Shown here piece by piece: positions 17,404-64,000 of a stretch of DNA of 64,000 bases. Each line of letters begins with the position of its first letter. Position 1 is the first letter of the stretch. Position numbers and translations under genes: made by a program. Location: assembly GCA_964428395.1 (NCBI GenBank), contig CAYRYB010000005.1, positions 6,414-70,413 of the forward strand, given 5' to 3'. This stretch comes from an uncultured Methanosarcinales archaeon. Lineage in GTDB: Archaea > Nanobdellota > Nanobdellia > Woesearchaeales > SKGA01. The notes under the pieces were generated by a model. It was not told the origin of the DNA. It made no database searches and saw only the letters and a program-made list of their open reading frames with translations.

Positions 17404-17465
17404 AAAAAATTAAAAAGACAATTTACCTGCATATTTATAAAGGAATTCTTCTTTATACTTCTTGG

Positions 17466-17730
17466 CTATGCTGGGTGGTTGATCCTCACCTGTAACGCCA
17501 AGTGGATCGTTGGGCGAGCAGAAGTAGCGGGGGCGGCAAGAATAGTGTGTTGCAGTCTTTTAGGAATTGTTGATACTCTGTCCTGTTTGGTCGTTATATT
17601 CATCAATCTGGTCAGGCCTTGACGGGAGCAGCCATACGTGGACGTATTGGCGTTTATAGGGTTGCAGAGAGAAGAGACCCAAAAGAGTATACTGTGCGTG
17701 TTATTATTTGTCCACCCTGCTACACGCCAC
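17466..17730 (+). ncRNA. signal recognition particle RNA (7S/SRP RNA)
   Basis: The GC-rich ORF-free segment contains the helix-8 motif CUGGUCAGGCC-UUGA-CGGGAGCAGCC at 17608-17633 (compare E. coli 4.5S GGUCAGGUCC-GGAA-GGAAGCAGCC). The 5' GCTGGGTGG (17470-17478) pairs with the 3' CCACCCTGC (17712-17720) as helix 1. A TATA-like TTTATAAA sits about 25 nt upstream and a T6 run at 17731-17736 follows. Confidence 0.6.
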
Positions 17731-17841
17731 TTTTTTATTAAGTTTTATTCTATTGCAAAATGATTCTGCTTTTAGCTTCTTTTTTCTTTACATTTTTAGA
17801 ACGTTATGCTTACAAAAGATGTATTGTGTTTATTTTTAAGT

Positions 17842-47252: not shown

Positions 47253-47465
47253 GTTTCTTTTTTTTTAAAATTGCTTTTATTTAAATACTCTTATGTTTTT
47301 TGTTCTTTTTTTTCTAGTTTATTTTTCTTCGTTTTTTTACAGCAGTTCTTTTTATACTCTTTTTTTGACTTAAACCTGACACTTTTCAAGCTTTTTTCAA
47401 AATGCGAAGTGTTGTTTATGAATACTTTTGAAACGTTTAAGAGGATAAATCAGAAGATAATCTTA

Positions 47466-47590
47466 GCGGACCTGGAGGGATTTGAACCCTCAACCTACAG
47501 CTCACTACAACGCAAAATTGTCTATACATTGCATTATAACATTTTTTCGTTTTAGGAGGCTGTCGCCCTATCCAGATTAGGCTACAGGTC
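47466..47590 (-). tRNA. tRNA-Arg (anticodon CCT) with a 50-nt intron at canonical 37/38
   Basis: Acceptor GGACCUG/CAGGUCC is perfect. D-stem GCCU/GGGC, anticodon stem ACAGC/GCUGU, loop CU-CCU-A|A, T-stem GAGGG/CCCUC, T-loop UUCAAAU and discriminator G. The 5' exon is 47590-47552, the intron 47551-47502 and the 3' exon 47501-47466. Confidence 0.85.
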
Positions 47591-47794
47591 CGAAGCCTTT
47601 TTAAGAAGATTTTGCTTGCTAATAAATATACTTGTTTTTCATGCGTGTTTTTCTTTATTTACCCTTCTTGGCTCTTTTTTGTGAAATTTTACTATTTTTT
47701 AATCTTTTACTCTTATATTTTTTTGCTCTTTGCTTTTTTTCTTTGTATGTGCTTTGGGGTAGTATACAAATTATTTTGAATAACGTTTCGTAAT

Positions 47795-47851: not shown

Positions 47852-49699
47852 ATGGGAAAATCTTATATGAAAGGGGGAATAGTTCTTCTTATAGCTTTGC
47901 TTCTTACAGGCACGCTTCTTGCAGGAGCGCTAGCAGCAGAATCAAAATCCTTTACTGTGGTGAATTCGAAGGATTGGCATGACTTATACTTAGGAACCAT
48001 TTATGCTTCAGCAACAAATTCAGAATTTGTTTTTTTCACTAATCTTGCAGACACTCAATTAAAAACCAAGATGATGGCTCCTACCGACAAAATTACTGTC
48101 TTTGAATCAAAAAACAATCCTGTAGTAAAGAATTATCCTTCGCTTTTAAAGGTAAATGCTTACAAAAATGTTGATACAACCTTTTATGATTCTTTTTATG
48201 ATCTCCAAAAAATATTTGTAAATAATCTAAGAAAACACATAAAAGGATTTTTCGTATTTGATGCTTCATTTGGCATGAATCCTGTTGCAGCAGCGCCTTA
48301 TTTGGTAAAAAATTCTTATTTTCCTCTTTTTTTAGATGAACAAAGCTTTTCTTTTGTTCAATCAACAATAAAAGGAAAAAATACCTATATTGCAGGTCAT
48401 ATTCCTGTGCGTCAATTAGAGCACTTACAAGGAACTATCTTTTCAGGTTTTTCTTATGAAACATTAGATCAAGTAACCAAACTTGTCATTAATGATTTTC
48501 CCAATGCAAGCTGGGGTGTTCTAATCAAGATAGATATTGTTGATTTAGCGGCAATAAAACAAAAACTACCTGTCTTTGTTTTTTACGGCGATGCATATCT
48601 TGATACATTAGCAGATCTTTTAAAACAAACAAACATTACAGATTTTGAAGTGATAGGCGGTCCAACAGCCGATGTTGCACGAGCTCTTGAAATTCGTTCA
48701 CAACGAAATCTCAATTTCATGCTTAAATATGGTCGACGAGTGACAAATTATCCTGGATTTACACAAAACGTTTTAGAATTAGATTCTGCACCATTTCCGT
48801 ACCCGATAGAATCTTTAATAATAACAAATGCAATATACTACCCTAATATGGGTGTTTTAGCAATAACCTTTGATAACAAAGGAAATGTTCCCCTTCTTCA
48901 ATTTTCTAATCTTGAATTCGCAGGATCTGCACTTTCAGATACGGCAACACATTTTATTTTGCAGGGAGAACAAAAGACAATTCCTTTTCAAGTTTTACCA
49001 TCAACTGCAACAAATGATTTAACGGTAACCACGAGATATGGCGAATCTATTCCTTTGCAATTCGAAATAGGATCTAAAGAAGATTCATTATTTTACCAAA
49101 AGAATGTGACTTTAATTAACAATTATCAAGATGATGCAGTCATACAATATGTTTCTTCAGTTTTTGATACTACCAAAGGTCAATTGGAATTAACGTACAA
49201 AAATCCAACAAGTAAACCTATTCATATCTATGCTGAACTTTTCATTGATGACGCACAAGTTCTTTCATCGCCAGTAATAGCTATTCCTGCAGGTCAAAAA
49301 GATGTGGTGATTATCAAAACACCGTTCATACCTGATGCTGACTTGCTAAAAAAATCAGTTCAAATTACTACGTATTATGGTCATAAAGATACGTTGCTTT
49401 CACAAACAAATACTATTGTAATTAAGGAAAAAGGTCCACTAGGAGCTTTAACAGGATGGGTAACGCTTGATTACTCTGATACGCCTGCTAAAGCAGGAAT
49501 AACGACCATTGTCATTCTCTTTATCATTGCATTATTACTTTTCTTCATCTTTAGAAGAAAAAAGAATAAAAATAATAAAAAAAGAGTGTTTGTCAATGAG
49601 AAAAGAAGACGCTCATCAAAGAAAAAACCTTCTTTTTCAAAGAAAGCAACAGCAAAAAAATCTGTAAAGAAATCTTCTCGACGAAAACCATCCCGATAA
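47852..49699 (+). CDS. secreted type-I membrane-anchored surface protein with a K/R/S-rich cytoplasmic tail
   Basis: Signal peptide (IVLLIALLLTGTLLAGALAAES), a ~540-aa ectodomain, a TM helix ITTIVILFIIALLLFFIF, and a RRKKNKNNKKR...KKSSRRKPSR tail. Confidence 0.7.
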   Translation: MGKSYMKGGIVLLIALLLTGTLLAGALAAESKSFTVVNSKDWHDLYLGTIYASATNSEFVFFTNLADTQLKTKMMAPTDKITVFESKNNPVVKNYPSLLKVNAYKNVDTTFYDSFYDLQKIFVNNLRKHIKGFFVFDASFGMNPVAAAPYLVKNSYFPLFLDEQSFSFVQSTIKGKNTYIAGHIPVRQLEHLQGTIFSGFSYETLDQVTKLVINDFPNASWGVLIKIDIVDLAAIKQKLPVFVFYGDAYLDTLADLLKQTNITDFEVIGGPTADVARALEIRSQRNLNFMLKYGRRVTNYPGFTQNVLELDSAPFPYPIESLIITNAIYYPNMGVLAITFDNKGNVPLLQFSNLEFAGSALSDTATHFILQGEQKTIPFQVLPSTATNDLTVTTRYGESIPLQFEIGSKEDSLFYQKNVTLINNYQDDAVIQYVSSVFDTTKGQLELTYKNPTSKPIHIYAELFIDDAQVLSSPVIAIPAGQKDVVIIKTPFIPDADLLKKSVQITTYYGHKDTLLSQTNTIVIKEKGPLGALTGWVTLDYSDTPAKAGITTIVILFIIALLLFFIFRRKKNKNNKKRVFVNEKRRRSSKKKPSFSKKATAKKSVKKSSRRKPSR

Positions 49700-49802: not shown

Positions 49803-49926
49803 ATTCATATAATGAACAACAAACTATTGTGGGAAGTAGTTATTGGAAGGGTGTGGATGTAATTTCTTCTGCAACAAAAACCACAAACAAAGATAGTGTT
49901 AGCTTTAAGGAAAAATTTCCTCAGGG

Positions 49927-52900
49927 GTGGGTTTTATTAGAAGTGTCACACGCAAGTTTAGTGTAATTGTAGTAATCATGTTTACGCTTGTTTTAGCGAT
50001 AGCATTCCTTCCTTCATTAACTACTTCTTCAACGGATAAAACTCTTTCTCTTTATTTTCCACAACTTTCCCAACGAACCTTAAATATCACATCACAAACA
50101 GGGAATTATACCATAGAAAAACTTACACGCTTGCCCATTGTCTTTAACCAACCGGTACAATGGGAACTCGTTCTTACCGACGGTGTACAACTCTTTAACG
50201 TGCAATATGAAACTCCTGCAATTTACTTAACACAAAGCCAAACAAACACAGTAAGTACTTGGCAAAAAACATTAACGTTTAGTACCAATTTTACTGAAGG
50301 ATACAGCAATATTTCTTATAAAGAATTCTTACCAACAGTTGCAAATCTCACTCTCACCCCTTCACTTAACTACACCCTTGGGTATAACAACGCTTTAACC
50401 TTTACGCTTCCACAACTTGATTTAAAAGAAATAGTCCATTTGCAAACCACCCTTCCCCAACTCACACCCGCAAATAGTACGAACACCGCACCTTTTCAAA
50501 ACAATACAAACACCACATCTTTTCAAAATGAAACCCTTTCTACAACAAACATCCTTTCACACCCGCAAGCAATGCCAGAGAGCAAACAAGCAAAAAATAA
50601 GTATGGTTTGTTTGCTTTACATTTGGCAAAAGGACAAATAAAGAAACTAGAACTATCAAACGATTTTTTATTAACAATTGAACTGGAAAATATTACTTCA
50701 TCAAACTCCACTATCTTACATATCGATTTACCAACTTCCTTACAAAAAAATGAATATCTTTACGTATGGTATGTTGCGTCAGCAGATTATTTTAAACAAC
50801 TACCTTACACGCTTTCTTCAAATAGAAAAACACTCTTACTTGACTTGGCAAACATACCTGTTACACCTTATCAAGGAAAGATGAATTTTAGACTTAAGAT
50901 AGGACTGCCCACCTACCCTGTCAACATTACTACAGTATCGCCTCAACAAGCAGATGTTATGGCAGATGGAAAAGAACTTGTTCTTACAACATCAAAAGGA
51001 AATTTGGCAAAGATACGTGTTGTTGATCCAAAAAATATTCCTTCGCTACCACCACGTGCAGGCGTTTTTACTCATAAACTGCTCAAATTTTCCTTAACTA
51101 ACCTAACATCACCAAACGTTACTATTAATTTAACGTTTGATTACCTGCCTAGAACTTTTCAACTCTGGAAATTTAATCCGAATACGAACGTTTGGTACAC
51201 GTTTCCTTACACAAAATTAACTGCAAATACTATTGCTTTAACTCTTGTTGATGGTGGTTTTGGCGATGATGATGGGATAGTCAATGGCATTATTGAAGAT
51301 GACTTAGGTATAACAACCGGTTGGCAAAACGAAAGTTTTTCCTGGAGAATGGCCTTTAATGTTTCAAACAACGGTGCGGGAGATTTAACAAATTACCAAA
51401 TGCTTGTTTTACTCAATACTTCAAACTTTAATTTTAGTAATGCGCAAGATGATTTAGATGATATACGCGTTGTGTATTATAATGCTTCATCAGATACAGA
51501 AACACTTCTTTCTTACTGGATAGAAAATTCAGGACTAAATTTTAGTGCTGGCAATGAAACTGCCCGTGTTTGGTTTAAAGCACCCTATCTAGCTAACAAT
51601 ACGAATACAACATTTTTTGTTTATTATGGCAATCCAACAGCAAACTCCATTGAAAATGGAAGTGCAGTCTTTTTGTATTTTAACGACTTTGAAACACAAG
51701 TTGGTTTTGATACAGGAGACATGATGCCTGTACGAAGCACTACACGGGTAAAACATGGAACGTATGGACTAGACGGTTTTGGAAGCGGTAGTTATGATCA
51801 AGCATACACCAGCGGACTTAATAGCAGTCGTAATATTATTTTAGAATCATGGGTGCAAGGAAGAGATTACACATCAGGACCAGATACTTCTCTTGCTGCA
51901 ATCATGGTTGGTCATCCACCAGGAGGCGCGGATCGAAACGGATACCAAGCATATCTTGATGAACGAGGAGCTCCCTACTTAGGAATACGAAGAGATTATC
52001 AATCAACACAAATAATTGCCAGCGCAGACTCACCTACCATTACTTTTGACACATGGTATCTTTTACAACTTACTTGGCTTAGTAATAACTCGTTAATTTT
52101 TCGAGTGTATGATACGAACTATAATCTTTTACAAACGTTGTCTGCTGTTGATTCCAATCATACTGATGGAGAATTTGGTGTTGGAGCATACTATAACGCG
52201 AGTTGGGATGACTTTCGAATGCGACAATGGGCAAGTCCAGAACCAAACATAGCAAGCGTTATAGGAAGTGAGTTCGTAGGAATAATTAATATCAGTATTG
52301 ACAAGCCAACAGATGCTTCGCAACAAACTCGTTTACAATCATTTACCATGAATGGAACGCTCTCATGCTCGCGAGGAGATAATTGCGGTAATGTTTCAAC
52401 ATATTTTCAATATTATACAACTGCTGCACCGACACAAACATGGCTTCAAACATCATATGAAGATTTTAATAGCTCTTTGACATCAACAAACATTTCTGCA
52501 ACACAATCAGGAACAATTCTTCTTAATGTAACTAATGGTGGTGCGCAATGGTGGAACACGCAATGGCCTTACCGACAAGACTTTGAAATAACAAACGTAA
52601 CTGCAAATGTTACTGATTATTCGTTTAAAATTCAACTTAACAGCTCGCTTGTTGGTACTCATTTTAACTGGACAACAGCATTTAATGAGAGTCGGTTTGT
52701 ATGGGTAAATGAGACTTCTGGTCTTTTGGAATCGTGTAACTATTGGATTGAAAACTGGAACATTGCAGGACAAAATGCTACCATTTGGGTGAAAATTCCT
52801 TTTTTAGAAAGTGGAATGAATACTTCAGTGTATCTCTACTATGGCAATTTGAATGCTCTTTCGCAATCAAATTCTAGCAACACGTTTTTGTTTTATGATG

Positions 52901-55900
52901 ACTTTAGTGATGGTAAGACTGATAAATGGACTGTACAAGGAGGAACATGGCAAGTAGAAAACAATGAATCTTATTATCAAACAACAGCTATAGCATCTTA
53001 TCTGATTACTGAAGCAGGGGATAGTTCTTGGCAGGATTACACTATAGACACGCGAATAAATATGACGGGTTTAGCAGGCTCAACTTATTTTGCAGGAATA
53101 CTTTACCGATACCAAGACGTAGATAATCATTATGCAGTTATTTTAGATGACCGAGATAATGACAGTATTTGGCTTCGACAATGGGTGGGAGGAGATTATG
53201 CATCACACAACCCTCAAGAATGGACAGACGTTACCATTAATTTAGATGTTTGGAGTCCTTTACAAGTGGATATTTTTACAAATAAAGGTGGAACACATAC
53301 ATTAAGAGCTCACTTTGACGGAAAAGTAAAAGAATATAATTACTCAACATTTAATTCAGGAAAAATAGGGTTGATGACATATAACACGCAACCACGTTAT
53401 GATTATGTTCGTGTACGAAAATTTACAACATCTAACTTAGTATTAAAAAATAATTCTGAAGAAGAATTACTTGTAGCGTCTAATGGAAGTTATTATTCAG
53501 ATATTCACGATTTTACATCTCAAGATGTTAGTTTTGGAAATATTTACTGGACAGCATTAACACCTAATCAAACTAACTTAGATATTTACACTCGTTCATC
53601 AGTAGGTTTAGGAGGAACATGGTACTCACCAAATTGGCCTTATCAAAGAGAAATAAATGTGAGCAATACTGCAGGTGATCAAGAAGAGTATCAAATATTT
53701 ATTGAAGAAAATCTTTCATCGGCTTATGCTGCAGGAAAAATAAACGCTAATTGTAGTGATGTGCACTTCACCTATCTTAATTTAACGTCATTATTACAAC
53801 AAGAAGTCTCCTTTTTTACCGATGACTGTAACCTCACTGCTAGTGATATTGCACAGTTCTGGGTAAAAATGCCTCTCTTAGAAAATTCATCAGCAAATAA
53901 AATATTTCTTTATTATGGTAACAACACTTTAGTTGACGCAAGTGACATTGATGCAACCTTTAGTTATACAACTCCTCGAAGAATTGGATACATTGTAAGC
54001 AGCAAACTTGCAGCGAATGGTTTGAAGCTTACTAGTTTTTCAAATGGAAATGAAATAGATGTTGGTTCAAATACGTACAATCAAGATTATCTTAATGTAA
54101 CAGATATTTCTTTTACATCAGCATCTGATGAAATTAAAGTAAAAAATTTAGCACAACTTGCAGGACGAGGAATGAACGGAGATAGTATTGTTCCCATTTC
54201 TTGGGCAGGAACATTTTTTACCTACGATGGTATGCGAGCAAGTGACGACACTATATGTATGCTTAGTCCCTATGGTACTGCTTTTGTAAACATCAGTGAA
54301 CTTGGTGTTGAACGATGGTCGGGAAATGTTACTAGTGCAGGTTATTGTTATAATGGAACAGATTTCTCAGCAAACAACGCTTTGATTATTAATGCAACAT
54401 TACCTATTTTAGCATTTCATGATGGAGGACTTTCAAGCAATGAGGATGCATGGCCTTTTTATCCAGCACAAAATGAACCTCTATATGGAACATCGTCAAC
54501 AACCACTCCTATAGGAGTTGGTTCAAGTATTACTTCTCTTGTTTGTTATGGAGATAATGGAACATCTCAAGCAGCAAACAATATTCCTGCATATCAAGAT
54601 AGTTCTTGTGGTACATTAGGTGTTAGTAATCGAAATCAAGGCTTAGGGGCTGCTGTAAAAATTGTTCCTTCTACAGGTTATATTGGTGCAATTCAACAAG
54701 CAGATAGTGATGGAACAGAATCAACAACATATGCTCCCCGAAGAGAGATGGGAACAAGAATGGGCTCTGGACAAGACACACAATATATTGCTATTGTTAC
54801 GCCTTACGCAGGAGTGAATTGCAGTTTATATGATCAAAGTGGTTATGTAGCATCAAACATCACAACAACAAATTCTACGCAAGGTGTTGCAAAAGGCTGT
54901 TTTGGTTGTGGCAATAATAATGTATATGTTAATGGACCATGGGTTATGCAATGTGATAAGCCTGTATGGGCTTATTTTGAAAAAGACTATAATAATGAAG
55001 AAACATCACTTCTTAACCAAAAACAAATGCGTCAATATGTTTATCCATCACCGACAACAGCAATAAGTACAAAAGAATGTAATTATACGGAAGTTTCTTT
55101 GCATCCTGAAACATATTTTCTTTGGTCGCCTTGGTTTTTAGAAACAAATGGTACAGCAATTAGTTCTCCAAGTAATCGTTATGTACAATATAAATCCATT
55201 TTTGGAACTACAAACACCACAAGGTCAGCAGTACTATATGATATATCTTTAGAATTCAAAATTATTACAAATACTTGGAAAAATATGGCATCTTCTGGCA
55301 CACTTTTTACGGCGAACAATCCTGTTTTTACATTACTTAACTCATCAGTTAATGCAACACCAACACTTTTGGTAGTGCCAAAAGAAACAGGAAATTATTC
55401 TTTGCGACTTTATGTAAATGGATCGGGATCTGAAAGCCCAGTAATTTCTTTAAATAGATCTATAGCAATTTTTATGCAACCAGCATTCTCTAGTTTTAGT
55501 ACTTCACAAACAACAGTACCAAGAGACGATACTATACCATTAACCGCACTCTTTCTTGATGACGTGGCATCACCAATGAAATATTATAACGTTACTTTTT
55601 ACGATGAAACGGGTAATGGTTCTCGTTATGTTATAGGTTCTGTTCTTACCGATAAAAATGGTTACGCAACACTTACTTATGTTATACCCTCTGATGCAAG
55701 CTATGGAGATCACACGCTTAATGTAAGTTATTTGGGTTCAACAGCATCGTTTATTAAACGTGCAGAAAGAACAACAACTATTCATGTCTCTTCAACACCG
55801 ATTATTCATTCAACCAGTACATCACCAACAAATTTTGGTTATGGTTTTAATATATCCATTTATGCAAACATTACTGACGGTGTGGGACTTGATAAAGTAT

Positions 55901-58900
55901 TTGTTACTATTACAAATGAATCATCACAAAATCAGACGCATGAAATGAACCTTATTAATGGTCTTTATACATACAATTTTAGCAATCCTTGGATAAAACA
56001 AAATTACACTTATACCCTTATTGCAAACAATACTGATGGTATAACTACAACACTTGGAGACAACTCTTTTTCATTATTTGTTCAAACACTTTTTGATTTA
56101 AACACAAGCAAGCAAGCATACAAAAATAACGAAGTAGTAACTCTTGCAACAACAAAAGGAAGATGGCCAAAAATGAATGGTTGGCTTTACAGAATACCTA
56201 TTAATTTAACTTCACAGGCGCAATTGTATGATTATCAAGTAGAAATTGATTTAGACTCAACAAACTTTAAATTCGATCAATCAAACAATGGTTCAGACAT
56301 ACGCTTTAGATATTATAATCAATCAACAGGAAACGAAACAAATCTTTCTTATTGGATACAAGACTATAATGAAACAGCAAAAACAGCAACTATCTGGGTA
56401 AAACTTCCAGAAATAACAAACACAACAAATACACTTTTTTATCTTTACTACAAAAACGATAATGTTACAACCACAAGCAATGGTACAGCGACTTTTATTT
56501 ATTTTAATGACATGGAAGGACCTTTTACCTGGACGGATTATGGTTCAGGAGATATTCGTCAAAGAAACTCGCGAGCATATAGTGGTATGTATTCTGCACA
56601 TAAAGAAAACAATAATGATCCAAATGGAGGCTATGACAATGTTGGTACAACATTCGGACGAAATGTTATCATGGAATTTTTGGTAAATAGAAACGCAGCA
56701 TACAGTGGTGGTGCATATGATAGAATAGGATTTATCGATAACTCTGGAAATGGTTACGGATGGGTATATGACCATAGTGGTAATAGGATTATAGCTGATG
56801 TAAGAAACAATTATAGTGCTTCAACATTAAGTCCTGTTTCAGCACCAGATGCTATGGACGAATGGGTCTTTGGACGTTTTATTGTAAAATCAAGCGGGGT
56901 TGTTGAAGCGTATCGTTACGTTAATGGAACGCTTTCAGGAAATATGGCAACAATAGATTCTAGTTATAATAGTTTTACACGAGTCTATATTTTTGGAGGA
57001 AACGATTACTGGGTTGATGACATACGCATTAGAAAAAGTGATGATACGGCATTTCTTAATGTGCAGTATGGAACAGAAGAGGTAGATGCACTAGGTCTTC
57101 TTAATCTTGCTAATACCAAGTTTAAAGGATATCTAAAAATGATTGTGCAACATTGGACAGGCAGTTCTTGGCAAAATATTCTTCCACCAATCATAGAAAA
57201 CCAAGAACACGTCTTAGATAATTACGAAATTTTAGATATATCGTCACTTTGGCAAACGGCAGGAGCATGGAATACAACAAATAGGAATCCTGGAACGTAT
57301 AGGATTTATGCTGTCATGGAAAATCCTAATAGAATCACATTAGAAAATTATGATGATAGTCTTCTTTTAGGAACGCATAATTTTACTATTAAAGAATCAG
57401 CAGTGAGACTCACTAATTTTACATACGAAAACAAATACGAAAAAGGATTAACTGAATACGAAACAGGAGATACTATTGATTGGATAAACGCAACCGTGAC
57501 AGCGTTTGACAATATTGCTTATGATGCTAACATTACCTTAAGTCTATTGGATAATGGTAAAATATCAACAGGATGGGGCCCCCAAGGAGAAACAAAACTT
57601 TGTGGTGACTTATTAGAGAATCAAACGTGTGAGAAACGATGGGATAATGCAACAAATGGTTATGCTATTCCAATAGATGCAACAACAGGTACGTATACTT
57701 TTTTTTGGGGAGTGAATTCTACTTCAAAGAATGGGCAAATATATAGTAATAAATCTATATCATTTTCTATTCACAATATACCTTCAACAGCCAACACTGT
57801 TCTTGGTACAACTCGAATCTATAAACCAAACAGCACCACCTACAACGTTACTTTCACTAATTTATGGACTAAAAATATTACTGCAGTAAACGTTTTTATT
57901 AATTGTCCTGTAGTTACGGGTTTTACCTGCATGAATATTACACCTCAAACTTTTGCAAGTATTGAAAATAATACGAACTTTACTGTGTCTTTTAACATAA
58001 CAGCTAATGAGAGTGTTTCTTCAAATGATTATGCTCTTTCTGTTCAATTAAATTATACTGATCCTGGAGAAGAAAATAGATCTTGGAATGATGTAGCAAG
58101 CACTTCTTTGGAGGTTCGACTAGCAGGAATATTGGTTATTACAGATAATACTCATCCTACAACGGTAACAAGAAGTCATTCCTCTTTTTTTAGTGCGTAT
58201 ATGAATAACACAGGAGATGTACTTGCAACAAATGCATGGCTTAATTATACTTTTCCTGCGTTTTGGAGTTTAACTGCAGGCACTCAAAACAAAACTTTTG
58301 CTTCAATTCCTATAAATGCAATTGCGTGGAACAATGTATCTTTACAACCATCACAAACGACAACGCTTGGATCAGCTTCTATTCGTTTAGATTCTAATGC
58401 GGATGATGGTCGAAACGATTTCAAACAATACACTGTGGTAGTTTATGCAAATACTACTCTTACTCTCACAAAAAACCTTTCAATAGTTAATCGGGGAGAA
58501 AAAATAAAACTAACAGGCACATTACATTATGATAATGGTACGGCGGTTTCTAACCAATGGATTTCTTTTTATGATCAAACAAGAGGAATTTATTTGGGAA
58601 CAAATAAAACAAATATTGCAGGACAAACAAGTATTGAATATTTTATTAATGCATCAACAACCTTGGGTGCTCATACTATTAATGCAAGTTACAATGGAAG
58701 TGATGCATTATATCTTCGAAGTGTTTTGAACAGAAGCAGTATTGATGTTCATGAGAAACCACAACTTTCAGGGATTATTATTTCTCCAAACCTAACCGGT
58801 TATGGAAATACTATTTATATTAATGTAACTATTACCGACGCAGATGTTTTTGATGAAATAGATGCTGCGTGGGTAAATATAACCTATCCTGATGAAACCA

Positions 58901-61900
58901 CCACAATATTTTCAATGACTAACGTTCCACCAGATGACTACTATCTTCTTTTTAATGATACGTGGCAATTGGGAAACTATACCTTAACTATTTATGCAAA
59001 TGATACAACCGGCGCATTAAATAAAAGTGACTTGTATACATTTACTCTTAATGCCAGTCTTTTGTTAGGGATGCAAACAACAAACGATACGTATTCGCAA
59101 AATGAATATGTAAATCTTACTTCTACATCAGAAACAACGTGGTGGAATGAAAACTGGCCGTATCGCGAAGCGATAAATATTACTAATACTGCTGGTAATC
59201 TTACAGAGTATCAAATATTTATCAATTATGATTTTGCAACGCCTTACTCTGAAGATCATATACAACAAGATTGTAGAGATATCCGTATCACGTATTATAA
59301 CACAACACGCAATAAAGAAGAAGAAATACCTTACAGTATAGATGTTTGTAACCTTTCTGATTCTACCAACGCAACACTTTGGTCAAAAATACCTTTCCTT
59401 ATCAATGGAACAACAACAATTTATCTTTATTATGGCAATCCAACAGTAAGCACAACACAAAATCTTACAGCAGTTTTTACATATACTACAAAACACACAA
59501 TTGGCTATGTGGTAAGTTCAACATCAGTAACTAATGGATTAACAATTGCTAGTTTGGATGACAACAATGATATTAGTGTAGGAAGTAATACGTATTCTAT
59601 GAATGAACTGCAAACGACAACTCTTTCTTCAGGTTTAAGTATAGGAACTAAAATTCAAGCAACAAAACTTGTACAAGTAGAAGGAAATGGAGATGATGAT
59701 GATATGATTGTTCCTGTATCTTGGGCGGGAACTGAATTTTCTTATGGAGGAATGGATTCTTCAACAGATACATTTTGTGTTGTAAGCCCTTGGGGAAATG
59801 CAACGGTAGAAGTACGAGATGCAGGAACGTTACGCACAACGATGACAGTAAATAGTACAGGAACTTGTTATGAGTATGATACTAATGCAAATGCTGCAAC
59901 AAGAATTAATTCAACTATTCCCATACTTGTCTTTCATAATGGAGGATCAAATGCCAGACGTGCATGGGCTTGGTACCCTGCGACAAGAAAAGATTTATTT
60001 TCAATAGTTTCAACAAGCACGCCTGTTGGCAATGGACCAAACGCTGCAATAGTGAATTGTTATGGTAGTGATGATAATTATGATGTTTGGAACTCGGTTT
60101 CAGCTAATGATGACTTCTCTTGCACAGGAATTACCAATACAGGAAGCGGTAGTGGTGCTGCAGTACGTATTACTACAAACCAGCCAATAGGCGCGATACA
60201 ATTTGCTGATGGAGATGGTGCAGATGCAACAACTGCGGTTCCACAACAAGAAATGAGCACTTTATTTGGCTCATCTTTAAATGCAGAATATATTGCAATT
60301 GCAACTCCTTATAAAAATACGAATTGTTCTGTTTATGATTCCTCAGGACTTGTGGGAACAACAACAGTAGCAGGGTCTGATGCAAACAAAGTCTATAAAG
60401 GTTGCTTTGGTTGTGGTAATAGTAATGTATATGTTAATGGACCGTGGAAACTAGAATGTACTAATCCTGTTTGGCCGTACTATGAAGAAGATACTGATAG
60501 TGATGAAACAAATCTTTTTGGTTATAAACAAATGAGACAATTTGTTTATCCAACACCACAAGTAAGTTTAACTGGAGAACAAAGCATTGGTTCAAAGATT
60601 TACAATAAGCAGACTAACATACATAAAGGTCGCTTACTTATGACTATTGAGCAAAATAATAGTGGTGTTTGGCAACACGTTGCAACAATTATTAATGATA
60701 CTACTGGTCTTCGCACCATTACTGCGACAGGACTTGATCTTGCAACTATTTGGAATCCTATCTCTTGGTTTACAGGAACTCACGATGCAGGAATGTATAG
60801 AGCATATGCAGAACTAGAAGATACATCACACGCTGTTCTTAAAAATTATGATGGAACAAACATAAGTGGTTCATGGAAATTTACTATAGAAGAACCTGCA
60901 TTAAATTTAAACATTTCAACTATTAGAATTTATGATGTTACCTCAACAGCAGAAGCAAATTGGAAAATCTATACGGGTAACCTCATTGATTCTGGACTTA
61001 ATAAGTCCTACACGTTATACAAAGATAATATTTATCGAGTAGAAGTAGATGTGGACAATGTAGGAAACGATGATTGGAACATTAATCAAACAAATATAAG
61101 TTACACTAATTTTAATTCAAGTTGGTTTATTAACGAAAGTGATTACCTTTGGTATTCTAATTTGAGCACTATTGCAACTAGAAGAACTGATACTTCAAAA
61201 ATGTCAGGAACATTTAATGGCTCTATTGATTGGAACATTACTTCTCTTGGAGGTATTGTGCCCTCTTTGGAAACGGCAACATTCTTTTTTATTGTTAATC
61301 TTACACAGGATGATACGAAGAACGTACGATTTAGAATTCAACATACTTCATTTGATAAATCAGATTATTCTACCTTACAAGCCATTATTTTCACAGCAAG
61401 TGCGCCATCTTTACTAAATAATATATACAATATTACGAAGACAAAAGTTATCAGAGGAAACACAACCCTTCTTTATGCGCGTTGGGATAAAACGATAGCA
61501 GAAGCAAATTTTACGTACAATACCGCAACGCCGGTTGGATATACAACTTACTCAAACAACAGCATAAATAATGCTGAAAACTGGACAAACCATACTTTAC
61601 AAACAGGATCAACATGGTTTTTAGGAAATCATAGCGCAAAAATAAGCGTAGAAGATCAAAGTGGTAATGTGAATGATACGCTTTCTTATTTGACTTTTGG
61701 TGTTTGGGGTCTTGCGCAACTTACTGATATACAACTAAACGCTAGCAATATCAATGTTGGTGAGACAACAGAAATTAAATGTAAAGTAACTGATTATACA
61801 GACTCGGATGCAGTAATTGCAGGTTACAATGTTAGTTTTAGAAATAGCACTGATACTATAGGATGGAATGTTACTGATGGAACTGGTTGGGCAGTATTTG

Positions 61901-64000
61901 ATTATGTAGATCAAACAGCAGGAACCGAGCAAGTAGGATGCGCCATTGTTGAAAACAAGACTGGATTTTATACTATCGGAACATTAAATACAACTTCAAT
62001 AACAGTTCATACTACAGAACAAGTTTATCCGACTTATTCATCACTTTCTGGACCAAGCATTGCACATAAAGGAGATTCTGTTTTTCTTGCTAGTTATTGG
62101 CAAGATAACTTTGCACTAGATTTTGCAAACCTTTCAACAAACGCTTCTGGAACTTATGTGAATTATTCACGTGTAGAAATTTCCGGTCTTGCAGACTGGG
62201 CAAACTTTACCTACACTATTCCAACGACAATGACACCAGGAATGTTGGGATGGAAAGTACATGGAGCAGATACTTCTGGAAATGTGAATACCACCCTTGT
62301 TGAAAATATTTCTGTATGGGGATATTCTTTACTAGCTGATTCCTCAATAAATCCTGCGAGTGTACAACAAAGCAATCCAACAACAATAAAATGTCAGGTA
62401 ACTGATGCTAATGACTCAACAAACCTTACAAATTACAATGTAACTTTTTATTATAAAAATCAATCAACATCAACATATCTTTATTTAGGATATAATATTA
62501 CCTCTGCGGATGGTTGGGCAAACTATACATTTGCGCTAGATAACGCCACTACTTATGATATTTTATGTAATATTACAGATGACACCAACAAACAATATAA
62601 TGTCACCAGTCCAAGTAGCGCCATAAAACAACTTAATGTTGTATCTAGTGCAGATGTTTATCCGCCAGTTATTATCAATAGCAACTATGGAATTAATGAC
62701 ACGTCACTTTATCGCGGAGATTGCTTTCAAGTGTATGGTGAATGGAATGAATCACTTAACGTTTCATGGATAGAATATAATAACACGCCAACAAATATTA
62801 GTAGATATAATGGTACGCCTCCATTTACTGCTAACTGGACAAACAGTAGTATTTGTACAAACAGCTCATGGGAGCCAGGAACGTACACCGTGAAACTTTT
62901 TGCAAAAGATCAAGTAGGAAATCTTAACGATACTCTTTCTTATTTATCATTTGAAGTAAAAGCCAGAGCAAATCTTTCATGGTATGCGCCAACAGGCGAT
63001 CTTAACAGAACGTGGATAAATATGAGTTGTCAAGTTAACGATTATGATACAGGAGATCCAATAAGTGGTTATACCGTTCGATTTTATGATGGAGATTTAG
63101 GAAGCACATTAGGAAATGTGCAAACAAATGCAAGTGGCATTGCAACGCTAGAATATAATTATGCAACTATTCGTTCAGGAGGTCCTATTTATGTAGGACC
63201 TGATGATCTTTCCTGTCAAATATTTGCAACGACAGGATACGAAATTGCAACAGGTTTTGTACAAGAAACCGTTGATTTTTATGGAACTTTATCTGCAAAC
63301 ATAACAACGCCAATCACAGATGCAATATTGCACACTGGTGTTACAGAAAATCTTGTTGTTGCTACTCTGGATGAATTTGGAAATACACCAAAAGATCAAA
63401 ATGGTAATACTGCAAGTATTACTGCAAATTGGACAAACTCAACTGGAACGCAACTCGCAATGGGAACAAGCACTGCGTGGAATGTGCCTGCAACATATAC
63501 AACAGGACCTGAAACTCTTCACGTAGCAACAACAGCATCATATTATTACAATGGATCAGATACAACGAATGTTGTTATTTGGGGTTATTCTGATGTTACG
63601 TTATCAACACCTACAACAGGTGTTTATCCTAATAATACGCTTCTTACTATGACTTGTCGAGCAACCAATAGTGCTACTGGCCAAGGAATTAACACATATC
63701 CAATACTGTTTTATAATGATACAACACTTCTTGCTACTTTACCTGCAAACACAACAGGGTATGCAACGTATCAAATAAACACTAACAGCATGAGCGAAGG
63801 ATCAAGAACACTTCGTTGCGAGATAGATAACAATGCTACATTACTGTACAATAAAAGTTCTGCTTATCAAAGCAACGTAACAGTTATTGTAGACACTTCT
63901 GCGCCACAAATAACGTATGTGTTAACCAGCGATACTAATGGAACCTATGCGCGTGATTGGATACTTGTTAATGCAACTATTACAGAACCTAATATTGATA
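49927..64000 (+). CDS. giant secreted surface/adhesin-like protein, 3'-partial (>4,690 codons open to the window edge)
   Basis: Triplet-by-triplet reading from the in-frame stop at 49906-49908 to 64000 meets no stop. The GTG at 49927 gives a canonical signal peptide (GFIRSVTRKFSVIVVIMFTLVLAIAFLPSLTTSS). The first ATG is at 49978. Repeated W-x-Y-R...YYGN (DUF2341-like) modules, LamG-like modules and Ig-like repeats run throughout. No competing ORF of 60 aa or more is found on either strand across 13 kb. Confidence 0.85.
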   Translation, partial: MGFIRSVTRKFSVIVVIMFTLVLAIAFLPSLTTSSTDKTLSLYFPQLSQRTLNITSQTGNYTIEKLTRLPIVFNQPVQWELVLTDGVQLFNVQYETPAIYLTQSQTNTVSTWQKTLTFSTNFTEGYSNISYKEFLPTVANLTLTPSLNYTLGYNNALTFTLPQLDLKEIVHLQTTLPQLTPANSTNTAPFQNNTNTTSFQNETLSTTNILSHPQAMPESKQAKNKYGLFALHLAKGQIKKLELSNDFLLTIELENITSSNSTILHIDLPTSLQKNEYLYVWYVASADYFKQLPYTLSSNRKTLLLDLANIPVTPYQGKMNFRLKIGLPTYPVNITTVSPQQADVMADGKELVLTTSKGNLAKIRVVDPKNIPSLPPRAGVFTHKLLKFSLTNLTSPNVTINLTFDYLPRTFQLWKFNPNTNVWYTFPYTKLTANTIALTLVDGGFGDDDGIVNGIIEDDLGITTGWQNESFSWRMAFNVSNNGAGDLTNYQMLVLLNTSNFNFSNAQDDLDDIRVVYYNASSDTETLLSYWIENSGLNFSAGNETARVWFKAPYLANNTNTTFFVYYGNPTANSIENGSAVFLYFNDFETQVGFDTGDMMPVRSTTRVKHGTYGLDGFGSGSYDQAYTSGLNSSRNIILESWVQGRDYTSGPDTSLAAIMVGHPPGGADRNGYQAYLDERGAPYLGIRRDYQSTQIIASADSPTITFDTWYLLQLTWLSNNSLIFRVYDTNYNLLQTLSAVDSNHTDGEFGVGAYYNASWDDFRMRQWASPEPNIASVIGSEFVGIINISIDKPTDASQQTRLQSFTMNGTLSCSRGDNCGNVSTYFQYYTTAAPTQTWLQTSYEDFNSSLTSTNISATQSGTILLNVTNGGAQWWNTQWPYRQDFEITNVTANVTDYSFKIQLNSSLVGTHFNWTTAFNESRFVWVNETSGLLESCNYWIENWNIAGQNATIWVKIPFLESGMNTSVYLYYGNLNALSQSNSSNTFLFYDDFSDGKTDKWTVQGGTWQVENNESYYQTTAIASYLITEAGDSSWQDYTIDTRINMTGLAGSTYFAGILYRYQDVDNHYAVILDDRDNDSIWLRQWVGGDYASHNPQEWTDVTINLDVWSPLQVDIFTNKGGTHTLRAHFDGKVKEYNYSTFNSGKIGLMTYNTQPRYDYVRVRKFTTSNLVLKNNSEEELLVASNGSYYSDIHDFTSQDVSFGNIYWTALTPNQTNLDIYTRSSVGLGGTWYSPNWPYQREINVSNTAGDQEEYQIFIEENLSSAYAAGKINANCSDVHFTYLNLTSLLQQEVSFFTDDCNLTASDIAQFWVKMPLLENSSANKIFLYYGNNTLVDASDIDATFSYTTPRRIGYIVSSKLAANGLKLTSFSNGNEIDVGSNTYNQDYLNVTDISFTSASDEIKVKNLAQLAGRGMNGDSIVPISWAGTFFTYDGMRASDDTICMLSPYGTAFVNISELGVERWSGNVTSAGYCYNGTDFSANNALIINATLPILAFHDGGLSSNEDAWPFYPAQNEPLYGTSSTTTPIGVGSSITSLVCYGDNGTSQAANNIPAYQDSSCGTLGVSNRNQGLGAAVKIVPSTGYIGAIQQADSDGTESTTYAPRREMGTRMGSGQDTQYIAIVTPYAGVNCSLYDQSGYVASNITTTNSTQGVAKGCFGCGNNNVYVNGPWVMQCDKPVWAYFEKDYNNEETSLLNQKQMRQYVYPSPTTAISTKECNYTEVSLHPETYFLWSPWFLETNGTAISSPSNRYVQYKSIFGTTNTTRSAVLYDISLEFKIITNTWKNMASSGTLFTANNPVFTLLNSSVNATPTLLVVPKETGNYSLRLYVNGSGSESPVISLNRSIAIFMQPAFSSFSTSQTTVPRDDTIPLTALFLDDVASPMKYYNVTFYDETGNGSRYVIGSVLTDKNGYATLTYVIPSDASYGDHTLNVSYLGSTASFIKRAERTTTIHVSSTPIIHSTSTSPTNFGYGFNISIYANITDGVGLDKVFVTITNESSQNQTHEMNLINGLYTYNFSNPWIKQNYTYTLIANNTDGITTTLGDNSFSLFVQTLFDLNTSKQAYKNNEVVTLATTKGRWPKMNGWLYRIPINLTSQAQLYDYQVEIDLDSTNFKFDQSNNGSDIRFRYYNQSTGNETNLSYWIQDYNETAKTATIWVKLPEITNTTNTLFYLYYKNDNVTTTSNGTATFIYFNDMEGPFTWTDYGSGDIRQRNSRAYSGMYSAHKENNNDPNGGYDNVGTTFGRNVIMEFLVNRNAAYSGGAYDRIGFIDNSGNGYGWVYDHSGNRIIADVRNNYSASTLSPVSAPDAMDEWVFGRFIVKSSGVVEAYRYVNGTLSGNMATIDSSYNSFTRVYIFGGNDYWVDDIRIRKSDDTAFLNVQYGTEEVDALGLLNLANTKFKGYLKMIVQHWTGSSWQNILPPIIENQEHVLDNYEILDISSLWQTAGAWNTTNRNPGTYRIYAVMENPNRITLENYDDSLLLGTHNFTIKESAVRLTNFTYENKYEKGLTEYETGDTIDWINATVTAFDNIAYDANITLSLLDNGKISTGWGPQGETKLCGDLLENQTCEKRWDNATNGYAIPIDATTGTYTFFWGVNSTSKNGQIYSNKSISFSIHNIPSTANTVLGTTRIYKPNSTTYNVTFTNLWTKNITAVNVFINCPVVTGFTCMNITPQTFASIENNTNFTVSFNITANESVSSNDYALSVQLNYTDPGEENRSWNDVASTSLEVRLAGILVITDNTHPTTVTRSHSSFFSAYMNNTGDVLATNAWLNYTFPAFWSLTAGTQNKTFASIPINAIAWNNVSLQPSQTTTLGSASIRLDSNADDGRNDFKQYTVVVYANTTLTLTKNLSIVNRGEKIKLTGTLHYDNGTAVSNQWISFYDQTRGIYLGTNKTNIAGQTSIEYFINASTTLGAHTINASYNGSDALYLRSVLNRSSIDVHEKPQLSGIIISPNLTGYGNTIYINVTITDADVFDEIDAAWVNITYPDETTTIFSMTNVPPDDYYLLFNDTWQLGNYTLTIYANDTTGALNKSDLYTFTLNASLLLGMQTTNDTYSQNEYVNLTSTSETTWWNENWPYREAINITNTAGNLTEYQIFINYDFATPYSEDHIQQDCRDIRITYYNTTRNKEEEIPYSIDVCNLSDSTNATLWSKIPFLINGTTTIYLYYGNPTVSTTQNLTAVFTYTTKHTIGYVVSSTSVTNGLTIASLDDNNDISVGSNTYSMNELQTTTLSSGLSIGTKIQATKLVQVEGNGDDDDMIVPVSWAGTEFSYGGMDSSTDTFCVVSPWGNATVEVRDAGTLRTTMTVNSTGTCYEYDTNANAATRINSTIPILVFHNGGSNARRAWAWYPATRKDLFSIVSTSTPVGNGPNAAIVNCYGSDDNYDVWNSVSANDDFSCTGITNTGSGSGAAVRITTNQPIGAIQFADGDGADATTAVPQQEMSTLFGSSLNAEYIAIATPYKNTNCSVYDSSGLVGTTTVAGSDANKVYKGCFGCGNSNVYVNGPWKLECTNPVWPYYEEDTDSDETNLFGYKQMRQFVYPTPQVSLTGEQSIGSKIYNKQTNIHKGRLLMTIEQNNSGVWQHVATIINDTTGLRTITATGLDLATIWNPISWFTGTHDAGMYRAYAELEDTSHAVLKNYDGTNISGSWKFTIEEPALNLNISTIRIYDVTSTAEANWKIYTGNLIDSGLNKSYTLYKDNIYRVEVDVDNVGNDDWNINQTNISYTNFNSSWFINESDYLWYSNLSTIATRRTDTSKMSGTFNGSIDWNITSLGGIVPSLETATFFFIVNLTQDDTKNVRFRIQHTSFDKSDYSTLQAIIFTASAPSLLNNIYNITKTKVIRGNTTLLYARWDKTIAEANFTYNTATPVGYTTYSNNSINNAENWTNHTLQTGSTWFLGNHSAKISVEDQSGNVNDTLSYLTFGVWGLAQLTDIQLNASNINVGETTEIKCKVTDYTDSDAVIAGYNVSFRNSTDTIGWNVTDGTGWAVFDYVDQTAGTEQVGCAIVENKTGFYTIGTLNTTSITVHTTEQVYPTYSSLSGPSIAHKGDSVFLASYWQDNFALDFANLSTNASGTYVNYSRVEISGLADWANFTYTIPTTMTPGMLGWKVHGADTSGNVNTTLVENISVWGYSLLADSSINPASVQQSNPTTIKCQVTDANDSTNLTNYNVTFYYKNQSTSTYLYLGYNITSADGWANYTFALDNATTYDILCNITDDTNKQYNVTSPSSAIKQLNVVSSADVYPPVIINSNYGINDTSLYRGDCFQVYGEWNESLNVSWIEYNNTPTNISRYNGTPPFTANWTNSSICTNSSWEPGTYTVKLFAKDQVGNLNDTLSYLSFEVKARANLSWYAPTGDLNRTWINMSCQVNDYDTGDPISGYTVRFYDGDLGSTLGNVQTNASGIATLEYNYATIRSGGPIYVGPDDLSCQIFATTGYEIATGFVQETVDFYGTLSANITTPITDAILHTGVTENLVVATLDEFGNTPKDQNGNTASITANWTNSTGTQLAMGTSTAWNVPATYTTGPETLHVATTASYYYNGSDTTNVVIWGYSDVTLSTPTTGVYPNNTLLTMTCRATNSATGQGINTYPILFYNDTTLLATLPANTTGYATYQINTNSMSEGSRTLRCEIDNNATLLYNKSSAYQSNVTVIVDTSAPQITYVLTSDTNGTYARDWILVNATITEPNID
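53612..55055 (+). repeat. intragenic module A (DUF2341-like + ~400-aa Cys-containing module); diverged copy at 59137-60565
   Basis: The protein-level repeat is about 40% identical. Shared motifs are NWPY(Q/R)(R/E)(E/A)IN(V/I)(S/T)NTAG, LYYGN, IGY(I/V)VSS, VP(I/V)SWAGT, YKGCFGCGN(N/S)NVYVNGPW and QMRQ(Y/F)VYP. Confidence 0.75.
59137..60565 (+). repeat. intragenic module B (paralogous to 53612-55055)
   Basis: See module A. The copies are separated by about 5.5 kb within the same ORF. Confidence 0.75.

What the first reader, a model, noticed from the sequence alone, without database searches (positions are those of the whole stretch)
53930..55055. Unrecognised ~400-aa Cys-containing module present twice in the giant protein (second copy 59450-60565)
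After DUF2341-like copies 3 and 5 the protein carries a large module that I cannot place in any family. The two copies are clearly homologous at about 40% identity. Fully conserved islands are IGY(I/V)VSS, (G/D)xxIVP(I/V)SWAGTxF(T/S)Y, AxxYIAI(V/A)TPY, SGxVxxxxxxxxxxVxKGCFGCGN(N/S)NVYVNGPW, xPVW(A/P)Y(F/Y)E and QMRQ(Y/F)VYP(S/T)P. The CFGCGN Cys pair and the strict conservation after divergence argue for a folded functional domain rather than low complexity. It could be an enzymatic or binding domain specific to this lineage.
Basis: seen in the sequence. Interest (0 to 1): 0.65.

Follow-up and report, generated by a model that had tools for sequence, protein, structure and literature searches.

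The report
Unnamed adhesin module, distant IgGFc-binding-domain relative
The twice-repeated 370-residue stretch is a real, well-folded all-beta domain of a giant archaeal surface protein; it is not lineage-specific but belongs to a large, still unnamed prokaryotic family that nearly always follows a DUF2341 domain and is a distant relative of the animal 'IgGFc-binding protein N-terminal' domain, most likely serving attachment rather than catalysis.

Summary
The giant ORF (49909 to beyond 63999, + strand) carries two copies of a ~370-aa module, at nt 53944-55065 and 59461-60570. They are 45-47% identical (E 2e-122), and each directly follows a DUF2341 domain (copies 3 and 5). Neither copy matches Pfam, NCBIfam or PDB sequences.

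The module is not lineage-specific. An exhaustive profile search found 560 cluster representatives, 269 of them at E<=1e-30. They come from DPANN and other archaea and from several bacterial phyla, and are annotated only as "DUF2341 domain-containing" or hypothetical.

With 53 homologues, AlphaFold2 gives a confident all-beta model (pLDDT 93, pTM 0.92) with no PDB neighbour by Foldseek. The module is built from repeated ~90-aa beta units. Profile-profile comparison shows remote homology to Pfam PF17517 (IgGFc_binding): 95% probability, score 70, against at most 29 in shuffles. The curated PF17517 model itself does not hit it.

Relatives carry pilin-type or T9SS signals, or lie in archaellum/type IV pilus-like loci. 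The best reading is an extracellular binding or adhesion module. No function has been shown directly.

The parts
49927..63999 (+). Giant surface-protein gene, truncated by the window end. The start is either GTG 49927 or ATG 49978. The N-terminus has one hydrophobic signal/anchor segment.
   Evidence: Open frame 49909-63999. There is a single hydrophobic 19-mer at aa 13-40, and N-glycosylation sequons number 218 against 94.7+-9.2 in shuffles. It is 61% identical over 4688 aa to P0003, the 7549-aa protein MCF7798375.1 of Candidatus Woesearchaeota.
53620..53937 (+). DUF2341 (PF10102) copy 3, directly N-terminal to module copy 1.
   Evidence: Pfam finds DUF2341 in 5 stretches, E 2e-68. Motif and HMM positions are aa 1238-1343.
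53944..55065 (+). Module copy 1 (aa 1346-1719): a ~370-aa all-beta domain built of repeated ~90-aa units.
   Evidence: Family HMM 392 bits. AF2 model with pLDDT 93.4. No Pfam, NCBIfam or PDB sequence hit.
59140..59454 (+). DUF2341 copy 5, directly N-terminal to module copy 2.
   Evidence: aa 3078-3182.
59461..60570 (+). Module copy 2 (aa 3185-3554).
   Evidence: Family HMM 433 bits. 45-47% identical to copy 1.
51322..51648 (+). DUF2341 copy 1, not followed by the module.
   Evidence: aa 472-580.
52549..52863 (+). DUF2341 copy 2, not followed by the module.
   Evidence: aa 881-985.
56164..56472 (+). DUF2341 copy 4, not followed by the module.
   Evidence: aa 2086-2188; this is the best Pfam stretch, 2127-2204.

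Best explanation
Each copy is a self-contained extracellular all-beta domain of about 370 residues. It arose by repeated duplication of a ~90-residue beta unit. Each unit opens with an acidic residue followed by Pro-x-Gly-Thr-x-Phe and closes with a buried 'S-D-x-P-I-L-V' strand. Together with the DUF2341 domain in front of it, the module forms a conserved two-domain cassette. That cassette is used by archaea and bacteria in secreted, pilus-associated or cell-anchored proteins. It is a divergent prokaryotic branch of the superfamily that contains the animal IgGFc-binding protein N-terminal domain (PF17517). In this Woesearchaeota-like (DPANN) archaeon, two such cassettes sit along a protein of more than 4700 aa that is N-terminally anchored and rich in N-glycosylation sequons. 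There they most likely act as ligand-binding or adhesive heads that attach the cell to a partner cell, polymer or surface. Shown here: the fold confidence, the family size, the DUF2341 coupling, the repeat structure, the remote homology, and the surface and pilus context of relatives. Inferred: the binding function, the four disulfides suggested by co-varying Cys pairs, and a possible Ca2+ site at the near-invariant A-D-x-D-G-x-E loop.
For: The two copies are 45% identical, E 2e-122. The family has 560 representatives at E<=1e-3 and 269 at <=1e-30. The AF2 model has pLDDT 93.4 and pTM 0.92 and is all-beta.

DUF2341 is present in 46 of 53 single-module relatives. At least 134 of 210 modules are directly preceded by a DUF2341-like domain, and 24 more by another module.

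Internal repeats are supported by hhalign: half 1 against half 2 gives 94.7%, E 6e-8. Units 80-167, 168-253 and 254-352 are mutually similar, P 9e-5 to 4e-8.

Remote homology to PF17517 is supported by hhalign at 95.2%, P 2.5e-8, score 69.9 over 269 columns. Controls scored 15 (reversed), at most 17.8 (column shuffles) and at most 28.9 (block shuffles). The family HMM hits 43 of 50 PF17517 proteins at E<1e-3, while reversed sequences score at most 6 bits.

Relatives have surface contexts. Partner domains include N_methyl prepilin signal, Class_IIIsignal, Por_Secre_tail, Laminin_G_3, FG-GAP, cadherin-like, PKD and HYR. The 845-aa archaeal relatives lie next to Arch_fla_DE and Flagellin_arch-type genes, and one of them (P0019) also near T2SSE/T2SSF. 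A Chloroflexota relative is itself a prepilin-type protein next to another pilin.

The window protein has an N-terminal hydrophobic anchor and 2.3-fold sequon enrichment. Cys pairs 105-135, 201-222, 293-337 and 319-322 co-occur almost perfectly across 196 copies.

The literature fits this reading. DUF2341 proteins lie in archaeal type IV pilus loci and are proposed as tip adhesins (PMC4858521). A DUF2341 protein in the epd pilus locus was hit in a screen for genes needed for transformation in M. maripaludis (PMC10133366). The IgGFc-binding domain occurs in extracellular and adhesive animal proteins (PMC11237159).
Against: No ligand, binding assay or localisation exists for any member, so function is inferred from context alone. 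The window itself shows no pilus or secretion genes within 14 kb upstream; the neighbours are housekeeping genes. The downstream side lies outside the window. The curated PF17517 model does not hit the window copies (E<=10) or more distant family members, so the homology rests on my own profiles. No model coordinates or fold libraries other than PDB/Foldseek and BFVD were available. The positions of the conserved acidic residues, the disulfides and any binding surface could therefore not be examined. One PF17517-containing protein (Bombina) is described as a peptide L/D-isomerase (PMC11237159), so catalysis occurs somewhere in the superfamily.
Confidence: 0.6

Rival explanations
1. The module is an enzyme domain, for example a glycan- or peptide-modifying activity displayed on the cell surface. 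The near-invariant acidic residues (D168, D254, D256, E353) would be the catalytic or metal-binding centre.
For: D254 is 99% conserved, D256 96%, E353 99% and D168 92% across 196 copies. A Bombina protein containing the related IgGFc-binding domain is described as a peptidyl-aminoacyl L/D-isomerase (PMC11237159).
Against: The conserved acidic residues sit at equivalent unit-opening positions of the repeated units (D80..P84, D168..P174, E259..P265, E353..P368). That pattern suggests a structural or metal-stapling role repeated in each unit rather than one active site. The module occurs in tandem arrays of 2-4 copies, as adhesive repeats do. No catalytic family matches by Pfam, NCBIfam, PDB sequence or Foldseek. 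In my hhalign alignment, the His and Cys invariant in my PF17517 alignment fall opposite the acidic DxDG loop.
Confidence: 0.12
2. The module is mainly a rigid structural spacer. It would give length or mechanical strength to the giant fibre or pilus-associated protein without a specific ligand.
For: It is an all-beta, compact, repeat-built domain with co-varying Cys pairs suggesting disulfide staples. It occurs in multiple or tandem copies. For the related animal domain in frog glue, a mechanical role (rigidity or sacrificial unfolding) has been proposed (PMC11237159).
Against: Generic spacers in such proteins are usually ~100-aa Ig-like domains, of which this protein already has many (bMG3, MG2 and NPCBM_assoc hits). 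The strict coupling to DUF2341 and the conserved charged loops argue for a specific function. The small 845-aa pilus-locus proteins consist largely of LamG + DUF2341 + module and so have little to space apart.
Confidence: 0.2
3. The similarity to PF17517 is convergent or an artefact of repetitive beta-strand patterns, and the family is a truly separate fold with no known relatives.
For: The curated PF17517 model gives no hit. The shallow-profile comparison A1 against A3 is not significant. The registers of the best alignments differ between runs because both domains are internally repetitive.
Against: The deep-profile score of 69.9 compares with at most 28.9 for block shuffles that keep local strand patterns. 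Both halves hit independently. Reciprocal HMM searches reach 30-38 bits, against at most 6 bits for reversed sequences. The domain lengths are similar (~370 against ~390 aa), and both share the junction motif acid-x3-5-P-x-S-x-(W/A)-G-T-x-(F/Y).
Confidence: 0.08

Closest known systems
IgGFc-binding protein N-terminal domain (Pfam PF17517 IgGFc_binding / InterPro IPR035234)
   Same: Both are beta-rich extracellular domains of similar size (~370 against ~390 aa). Both are built from repeated units joined by the motif 'buried P-[IV]-x-V strand, loop, acidic residue-x3-5-Pro-x-S-x-(W/A)-G-T-x-(F/Y)'. The profile-profile match is 95.2%, P 2.5e-8, with clean controls. Both occur singly or in tandem in large secreted or adhesive proteins (PMC11237159).
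   Different: The curated PF17517 HMM does not detect the module. In the hhalign alignment, the PF17517 loop carrying its invariant His and Cys falls opposite the near-invariant A-D-x-D-G-x-E loop of the module. The module is almost always fused behind DUF2341, whereas the PF17517 proteins retrieved here carry Big_1, PASTA, VWD-type or other partners and no DUF2341. No PF17517 structure is in the PDB, so fold identity is untested.
DUF2341 / MJ1470-type proteins of type IV pilus-like systems (PF10102; arCOG03508-like)
   Same: The module is part of these proteins: 46 of 53 single-module relatives have PF10102 directly upstream. NCBI names them 'DUF2341 domain-containing protein'. Smaller relatives lie in archaellum/type IV pilus-like loci, as described for DUF2341 proteins in PMC4858521 and PMC10133366.
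   Different: PF10102 covers only ~85 aa, and the 370-aa module behind it has no model or name. Not every DUF2341 is followed by the module: copies 1, 2 and 4 of this protein are not. The window gene is not in a pilus locus.
FirrV-1-C4 (UniProt Q6XLX4, Feldmannia irregularis virus a), predicted structure in BFVD
   Same: It is the only convincing structural neighbour found: Foldseek probability 1.00, E 2.8e-15, TM 0.76 normalised to the query, over 394 columns.
   Different: Sequence identity is only 14%. It is a eukaryotic-virus protein of unknown function.
Giant surface proteins of DPANN archaea and CPR bacteria (e.g. nanohaloarchaeal SPEARE-like proteins; Patescibacteria giant proteins with DUF2341)
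   Same: These are also very large, signal-peptide-bearing, multi-domain extracellular proteins of ultrasmall episymbionts, proposed to mediate host attachment (PMC10266531, PMC11809585). The Patescibacteria examples also contain DUF2341.
   Different: The nanohaloarchaeal proteins are built from Ig-like, WD40 and VirB4-like domains (PMC10266531), not from DUF2341-module cassettes. No homology to them was tested here.

Membership tests
Pfam PF17517 IgGFc_binding | Scores at or above the curated gathering threshold (25.6 bits) of the PF17517 HMM | tested here: not met
   There is no PF17517 hit for either window copy even at E<=10. PF17517 is not among the families matched by 2 or more of 53 relatives. 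There is no hit in P0105, P0112, P0106 or P0132 at E<=1. As a positive control, the FCGBP N-terminus scores 227 bits.
Pfam PF17517 IgGFc_binding | Significant profile-profile similarity to an alignment of bona fide PF17517 domains (superfamily-level homology) | tested here: met
   hhalign gives 95.2%, P 2.5e-8, score 69.9. Controls score at most 28.9. Against vertebrate-only PF17517 sequences it gives 65.5%, P 5.8e-5. Reciprocal HMM hits reach 30-38 bits, against at most 6 bits for reversed sequences.
Pfam PF17517 IgGFc_binding | Same three-dimensional fold and unit order | not testable with these tools
Pfam PF17517 IgGFc_binding | Binding of IgG Fc, or another demonstrated ligand | not testable with these tools
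   This needs experiment. IgG is in any case not a plausible ligand for an archaeal protein.
DUF2341 (PF10102)-module cassette proteins | The module directly follows a PF10102 domain | tested here: met
   In the window, DUF2341 copies 3 and 5 end 2-3 residues before the modules. In relatives, 46 of 53 have PF10102, and at least 134 of 210 modules are adjacent to a DUF2341-like domain.
Type IV pilus / archaellum-associated adhesins | Encoded in a locus with pilin/archaellin, prepilin peptidase, and PilB/FlaI and PilC/FlaJ genes, or carries a class III / N-methyl signal | tested here: not met
   The window protein has a plain N-terminal hydrophobic segment, and its upstream neighbours are housekeeping genes. 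The downstream side lies outside the window. The feature is met only by smaller relatives.

The most novel reading that the evidence does not exclude
The DUF2341-plus-module cassette is the ligand-recognition head of a pan-prokaryotic class of adhesins, comprising pilus-tip proteins in methanogens and Chloroflexota, T9SS cargo in bacteria, and giant fibres in DPANN archaea. In Woesearchaeota it would mediate attachment to the host cell. The animal IgGFc-binding/mucin-associated domain would then descend from this prokaryotic adhesin domain. That would give the first functional handle on both DUF2341 and the uncharacterised vertebrate IgGFcBD gene cluster.
Probability: 0.3. Interest if true: 0.6.

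Novelty: new variant of a known kind. Interest (0 to 1): 0.42.

Why it matters
The module is a large (370-aa), confidently folding domain. It is present in at least 560 sequence clusters across archaea and bacteria, yet it has no Pfam or NCBIfam model and no solved structure. About 8% of this giant protein, and roughly 40% of many 845-aa pilus-locus proteins, is therefore currently unannotated. Defining the family and linking it to PF17517 would improve annotation of DUF2341 proteins. One such protein was hit in a screen for genes needed for DNA uptake in Methanococcus (PMC10133366). It would also point to the likely business end of giant DPANN and CPR surface proteins, and connect them to an animal domain family whose function is also largely unknown (PMC11237159). 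This is useful for domain annotation and for work on episymbiont attachment, but it is not a surprise in kind: it is another adhesin-type beta domain in a giant surface protein.

Tried and rejected
- **Coordinates as given.** Translating the given coordinates directly is out of frame.
- **Word-index homologue search.** It found only one relative. The family became visible only with the exhaustive HMMER search.
- **First AF2 run.** With 3 sequences it failed, pLDDT 41.
- **Foldseek against PDB.** It gave only meaningless multi-Ig matches with TM at most 0.17.
- **Profile searches of PDB sequences.** They hit only the Laminin_G region of relatives and nothing for PF17517.
- **Weak PF17517 comparisons.** A single FCGBP sequence against the family profile and the shallow comparison A1 against A3 were not significant. 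Only deep profiles were.
- **Locus scans.** The viral contig scan found nothing.
- **Fourth repeat unit.** Unit 1-79 is only weakly supported, P ~0.04-0.08.
- **Thioredoxin-like CxxC centre.** I considered and rejected this for CFGC. The pair is present in only 16 of 196 copies and always together, in an extracellular beta domain, so it is more likely a local disulfide.
- **Low-complexity or chance repeat.** Rejected on the E 2e-122 match and on family conservation.
- **Post-DUF2341 stretches.** I checked whether the stretches after DUF2341 copies 1, 2 and 4 are Laminin_G. They have no Pfam hit.

Full report
**1. Observation**

The window is AT-rich (65% A+T) and archaeal. It holds an archaeal SRP RNA and an apparently intron-containing tRNA, GatD/GatE, deoxyhypusine synthase and CDC48. 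The frame implied by the finding's coordinates is shifted. The module lies in the single open frame 49909-63999, which is 4697 codons long and still open at the window end.

BLASTP of the two regions gives 45% identity over 420 residues, E 2e-122. A family HMM places exactly two copies, at aa 1346-1719 (nt 53944-55065) and aa 3185-3554 (nt 59461-60570). Pfam finds five DUF2341 stretches in the protein. The modules begin 2-3 residues after DUF2341 copies 3 and 5.

**2. No curated match, but a large family**

Neither copy hits Pfam-A at E<=10 beyond noise, nor NCBIfam, nor PDB sequences. The word-indexed search found a single relative, P0001, which again has DUF2341 followed by the module.

The exhaustive profile search of 1.84 billion cluster representatives found 560 proteins at E<=1e-3, 470 at <=1e-10 and 269 at <=1e-30. 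P0003 (7549 aa, MCF7798375.1, Candidatus Woesearchaeota) is 61% identical to the window protein over 4688 residues. It is evidently the orthologue in a related genome. Other giant relatives carry two or three modules.

Genome hits come from Woesearchaeota, Nanoarchaeota, Aenigmatarchaeota, Thermoplasmata, Methanosarcinales, Chloroflexota and Gammaproteobacteria, plus Margulisbacteria. Sources call these proteins "DUF2341 domain-containing protein" or hypothetical. The module is thus widespread and unnamed, not lineage-specific.

**3. Anatomy of the family**

Conservation was measured across 196 aligned domain copies.

| Residue (copy-1 numbering) | Conservation |
|---|---|
| P84 | 96% |
| F92 | 96% |
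| D168 | 92% |
| P174 | 97% |
| G182 | 96% |
| D254 | 99% |
| D256 | 96% |
| G257 | 98% |
| Y281 | 91% |
| E353 | 99% |
| C319 and C322 (the CFGCGN pair) | 8-9% |

The eight cysteines of the window copies form four pairs that co-occur almost perfectly across the family: 105-135, 201-222, 293-337 and 319-322. This is what disulfide partners would show. It is an inference, since I had no coordinates.

The module is internally repetitive:
- The two halves match by hhalign at 94.7% probability, E 6e-8.
- Units 80-167, 168-253 and 254-352 match one another in register, P 9e-5 to 4e-8. Unit 1-79 is only weakly similar.
- Each unit opens with an acidic residue followed a few residues later by Pro and Gly-Thr-x-Phe: D80..P84, D168..P174, E259..P265 and E353..P368.
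- At least two of the units close with an 'S-D-x-P-I-L-V'-type strand.

The conserved acids thus recur at equivalent unit junctions.

**4. Structure**

With three sequences AlphaFold2 failed, pLDDT 41. With 53 sequences it gave pLDDT 93.4 and pTM 0.92, an all-beta domain of about 30 strands.

**5. Closest known family**

The junction motif recalled the IgGFc-binding protein N-terminal domain. I treated that as a lead and tested it.

- **Control.** A recalled FCGBP N-terminus was confirmed as PF17517 (227 bits) and is 100% identical over the 309-aa stretch searched to the database protein P0152.
- **Vertebrate PF17517 only.** The 196-copy family profile against 50 vertebrate PF17517 sequences gave hhalign score 43.6, P 5.8e-5. 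Both halves hit independently. Reversed and shuffled controls scored at most 23.
- **Reciprocal HMM searches.** These reached 30-38 bits, against at most 6 bits for reversed sequences. The family HMM hit 43 of 50 PF17517 proteins.
- **Broader PF17517 alignment.** After adding about 95 bacterial PF17517 domains, hhalign gave 95.2% probability, P 2.5e-8 and score 69.9 over 269 columns. Controls scored 15.0 (reversed), at most 17.8 (column shuffles) and at most 28.9 (10-column block shuffles).

The curated PF17517 model, however, does not hit the window copies or more distant members. No PF17517 structure is in the PDB. I therefore file the module as a separate, unnamed family in the same superfamily, not as a PF17517 member.

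**6. Function**

There is no direct evidence of function. The context is consistently extracellular:
- **Window protein.** It has one N-terminal hydrophobic segment and 218 N-glycosylation sequons, against 94.7+-9.2 expected.
- **Signals and partner domains in relatives.** These include prepilin N_methyl or class III signals, T9SS sorting domains, Laminin_G_3, FG-GAP, cadherin-like, PKD, HYR, He_PIG and reprolysin domains.
- **The 845-aa archaeal proteins.** P0019 and P0035 (LamG + DUF2341 + module) lie immediately after Arch_fla_DE and Flagellin_arch-type genes. P0019 also lies near T2SSE and T2SSF genes.
- **Chloroflexota relative.** It is itself a prepilin-type protein next to another pilin and a second DUF2341 protein.
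- **A further set of relatives (P0110; organism not named by the sources).** These form arrays of paralogues with lectin-type domains.

The literature agrees. DUF2341 proteins in archaeal type IV pilus loci are proposed to be tip adhesins (PMC4858521). A DUF2341 gene in the M. maripaludis epd locus was hit repeatedly in a screen for transformation-defective mutants (PMC10133366). Giant Patescibacteria proteins carry DUF2341 (PMC11809585). Giant DPANN surface proteins are thought to mediate host contact (PMC10266531). The animal IgGFc-binding domain occurs in mucin-like and glue proteins (PMC11237159).

The most likely role is a binding or adhesion head, possibly stabilised by disulfides and by Ca2+ at the A-D-x-D-G-x-E loop. 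Rivals are an enzymatic role, a purely mechanical spacer, and convergence rather than homology with PF17517. Their weights are given in the rival-explanations section.

The window gene itself is not in a pilus locus. Its upstream neighbours are housekeeping genes, plus a 615-aa membrane-anchored protein with no Pfam hit.

**7. Verdict**

The module is a new, sizeable prokaryotic branch of a known but poorly understood superfamily, fixed behind DUF2341. This is valuable for annotation and for work on DPANN and pilus adhesins. It is moderately interesting rather than surprising.

Noticed in passing
window 47467-47591 (-): The Rfam tRNA hit spans 125 nt for a 71-position model (56 bits). It is probably an intron-containing archaeal tRNA. 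ARAGORN did not report it, and a mechanical ORF (47139-47555, +) overlaps it.
   Followed up: no
window 17459-17733 (+): The archaeal SRP RNA hit is only 1 bit above the Rfam gathering score (97.5 against 96.5), suggesting a divergent DPANN-type SRP RNA.
   Followed up: no
window 47852-49699 (+): A 615-aa ORF lies directly upstream of the giant gene. It has an N-terminal signal peptide, a C-terminal transmembrane helix and a Lys/Arg-rich tail, with no Pfam hit. It may be a second surface protein of the same locus.
   Followed up: partly
window 51661-52293, 52876-53463, 56482-57093 (+): The ~200-aa stretches that follow DUF2341 copies 1, 2 and 4 occupy the place where relatives carry Laminin_G_3. 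They have no Pfam hit at E<=1 and resemble one another only marginally. They may be further unannotated domains.
   Followed up: partly
window 49909-63999 (+): N-x-S/T sequons are 2.3-fold enriched over shuffled sequence (218 against 94.7+-9.2). The two modules carry fewer (9 and 4 in ~370 aa each) than the protein average.
   Followed up: partly
L011 1764-16313; L012 168-4266: The 845-aa relatives (LamG + DUF2341 + module) sit immediately after FlaC_arch/Arch_fla_DE and Flagellin_arch-type genes. In L011 they also sit near KaiC-like ATPase, T2SSE and T2SSF genes and another 1309-aa DUF2341 protein. Together this forms an archaellum/type IV pilus-like locus.
   Followed up: partly
window 62329-63969 (+) and elsewhere in the giant ORF: The C-terminal part of the ORF contains bMG3/MG2-like (alpha-2-macroglobulin-type) and NPCBM_assoc beta-sandwich repeats, at or below the Pfam thresholds.
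   Followed up: no
BFVD Q6XLX4 (FirrV-1-C4): A brown-alga phaeovirus protein of unknown function is the only strong structural neighbour of the module (TM 0.76). This hints that the superfamily also reaches eukaryotic viruses.
   Followed up: no
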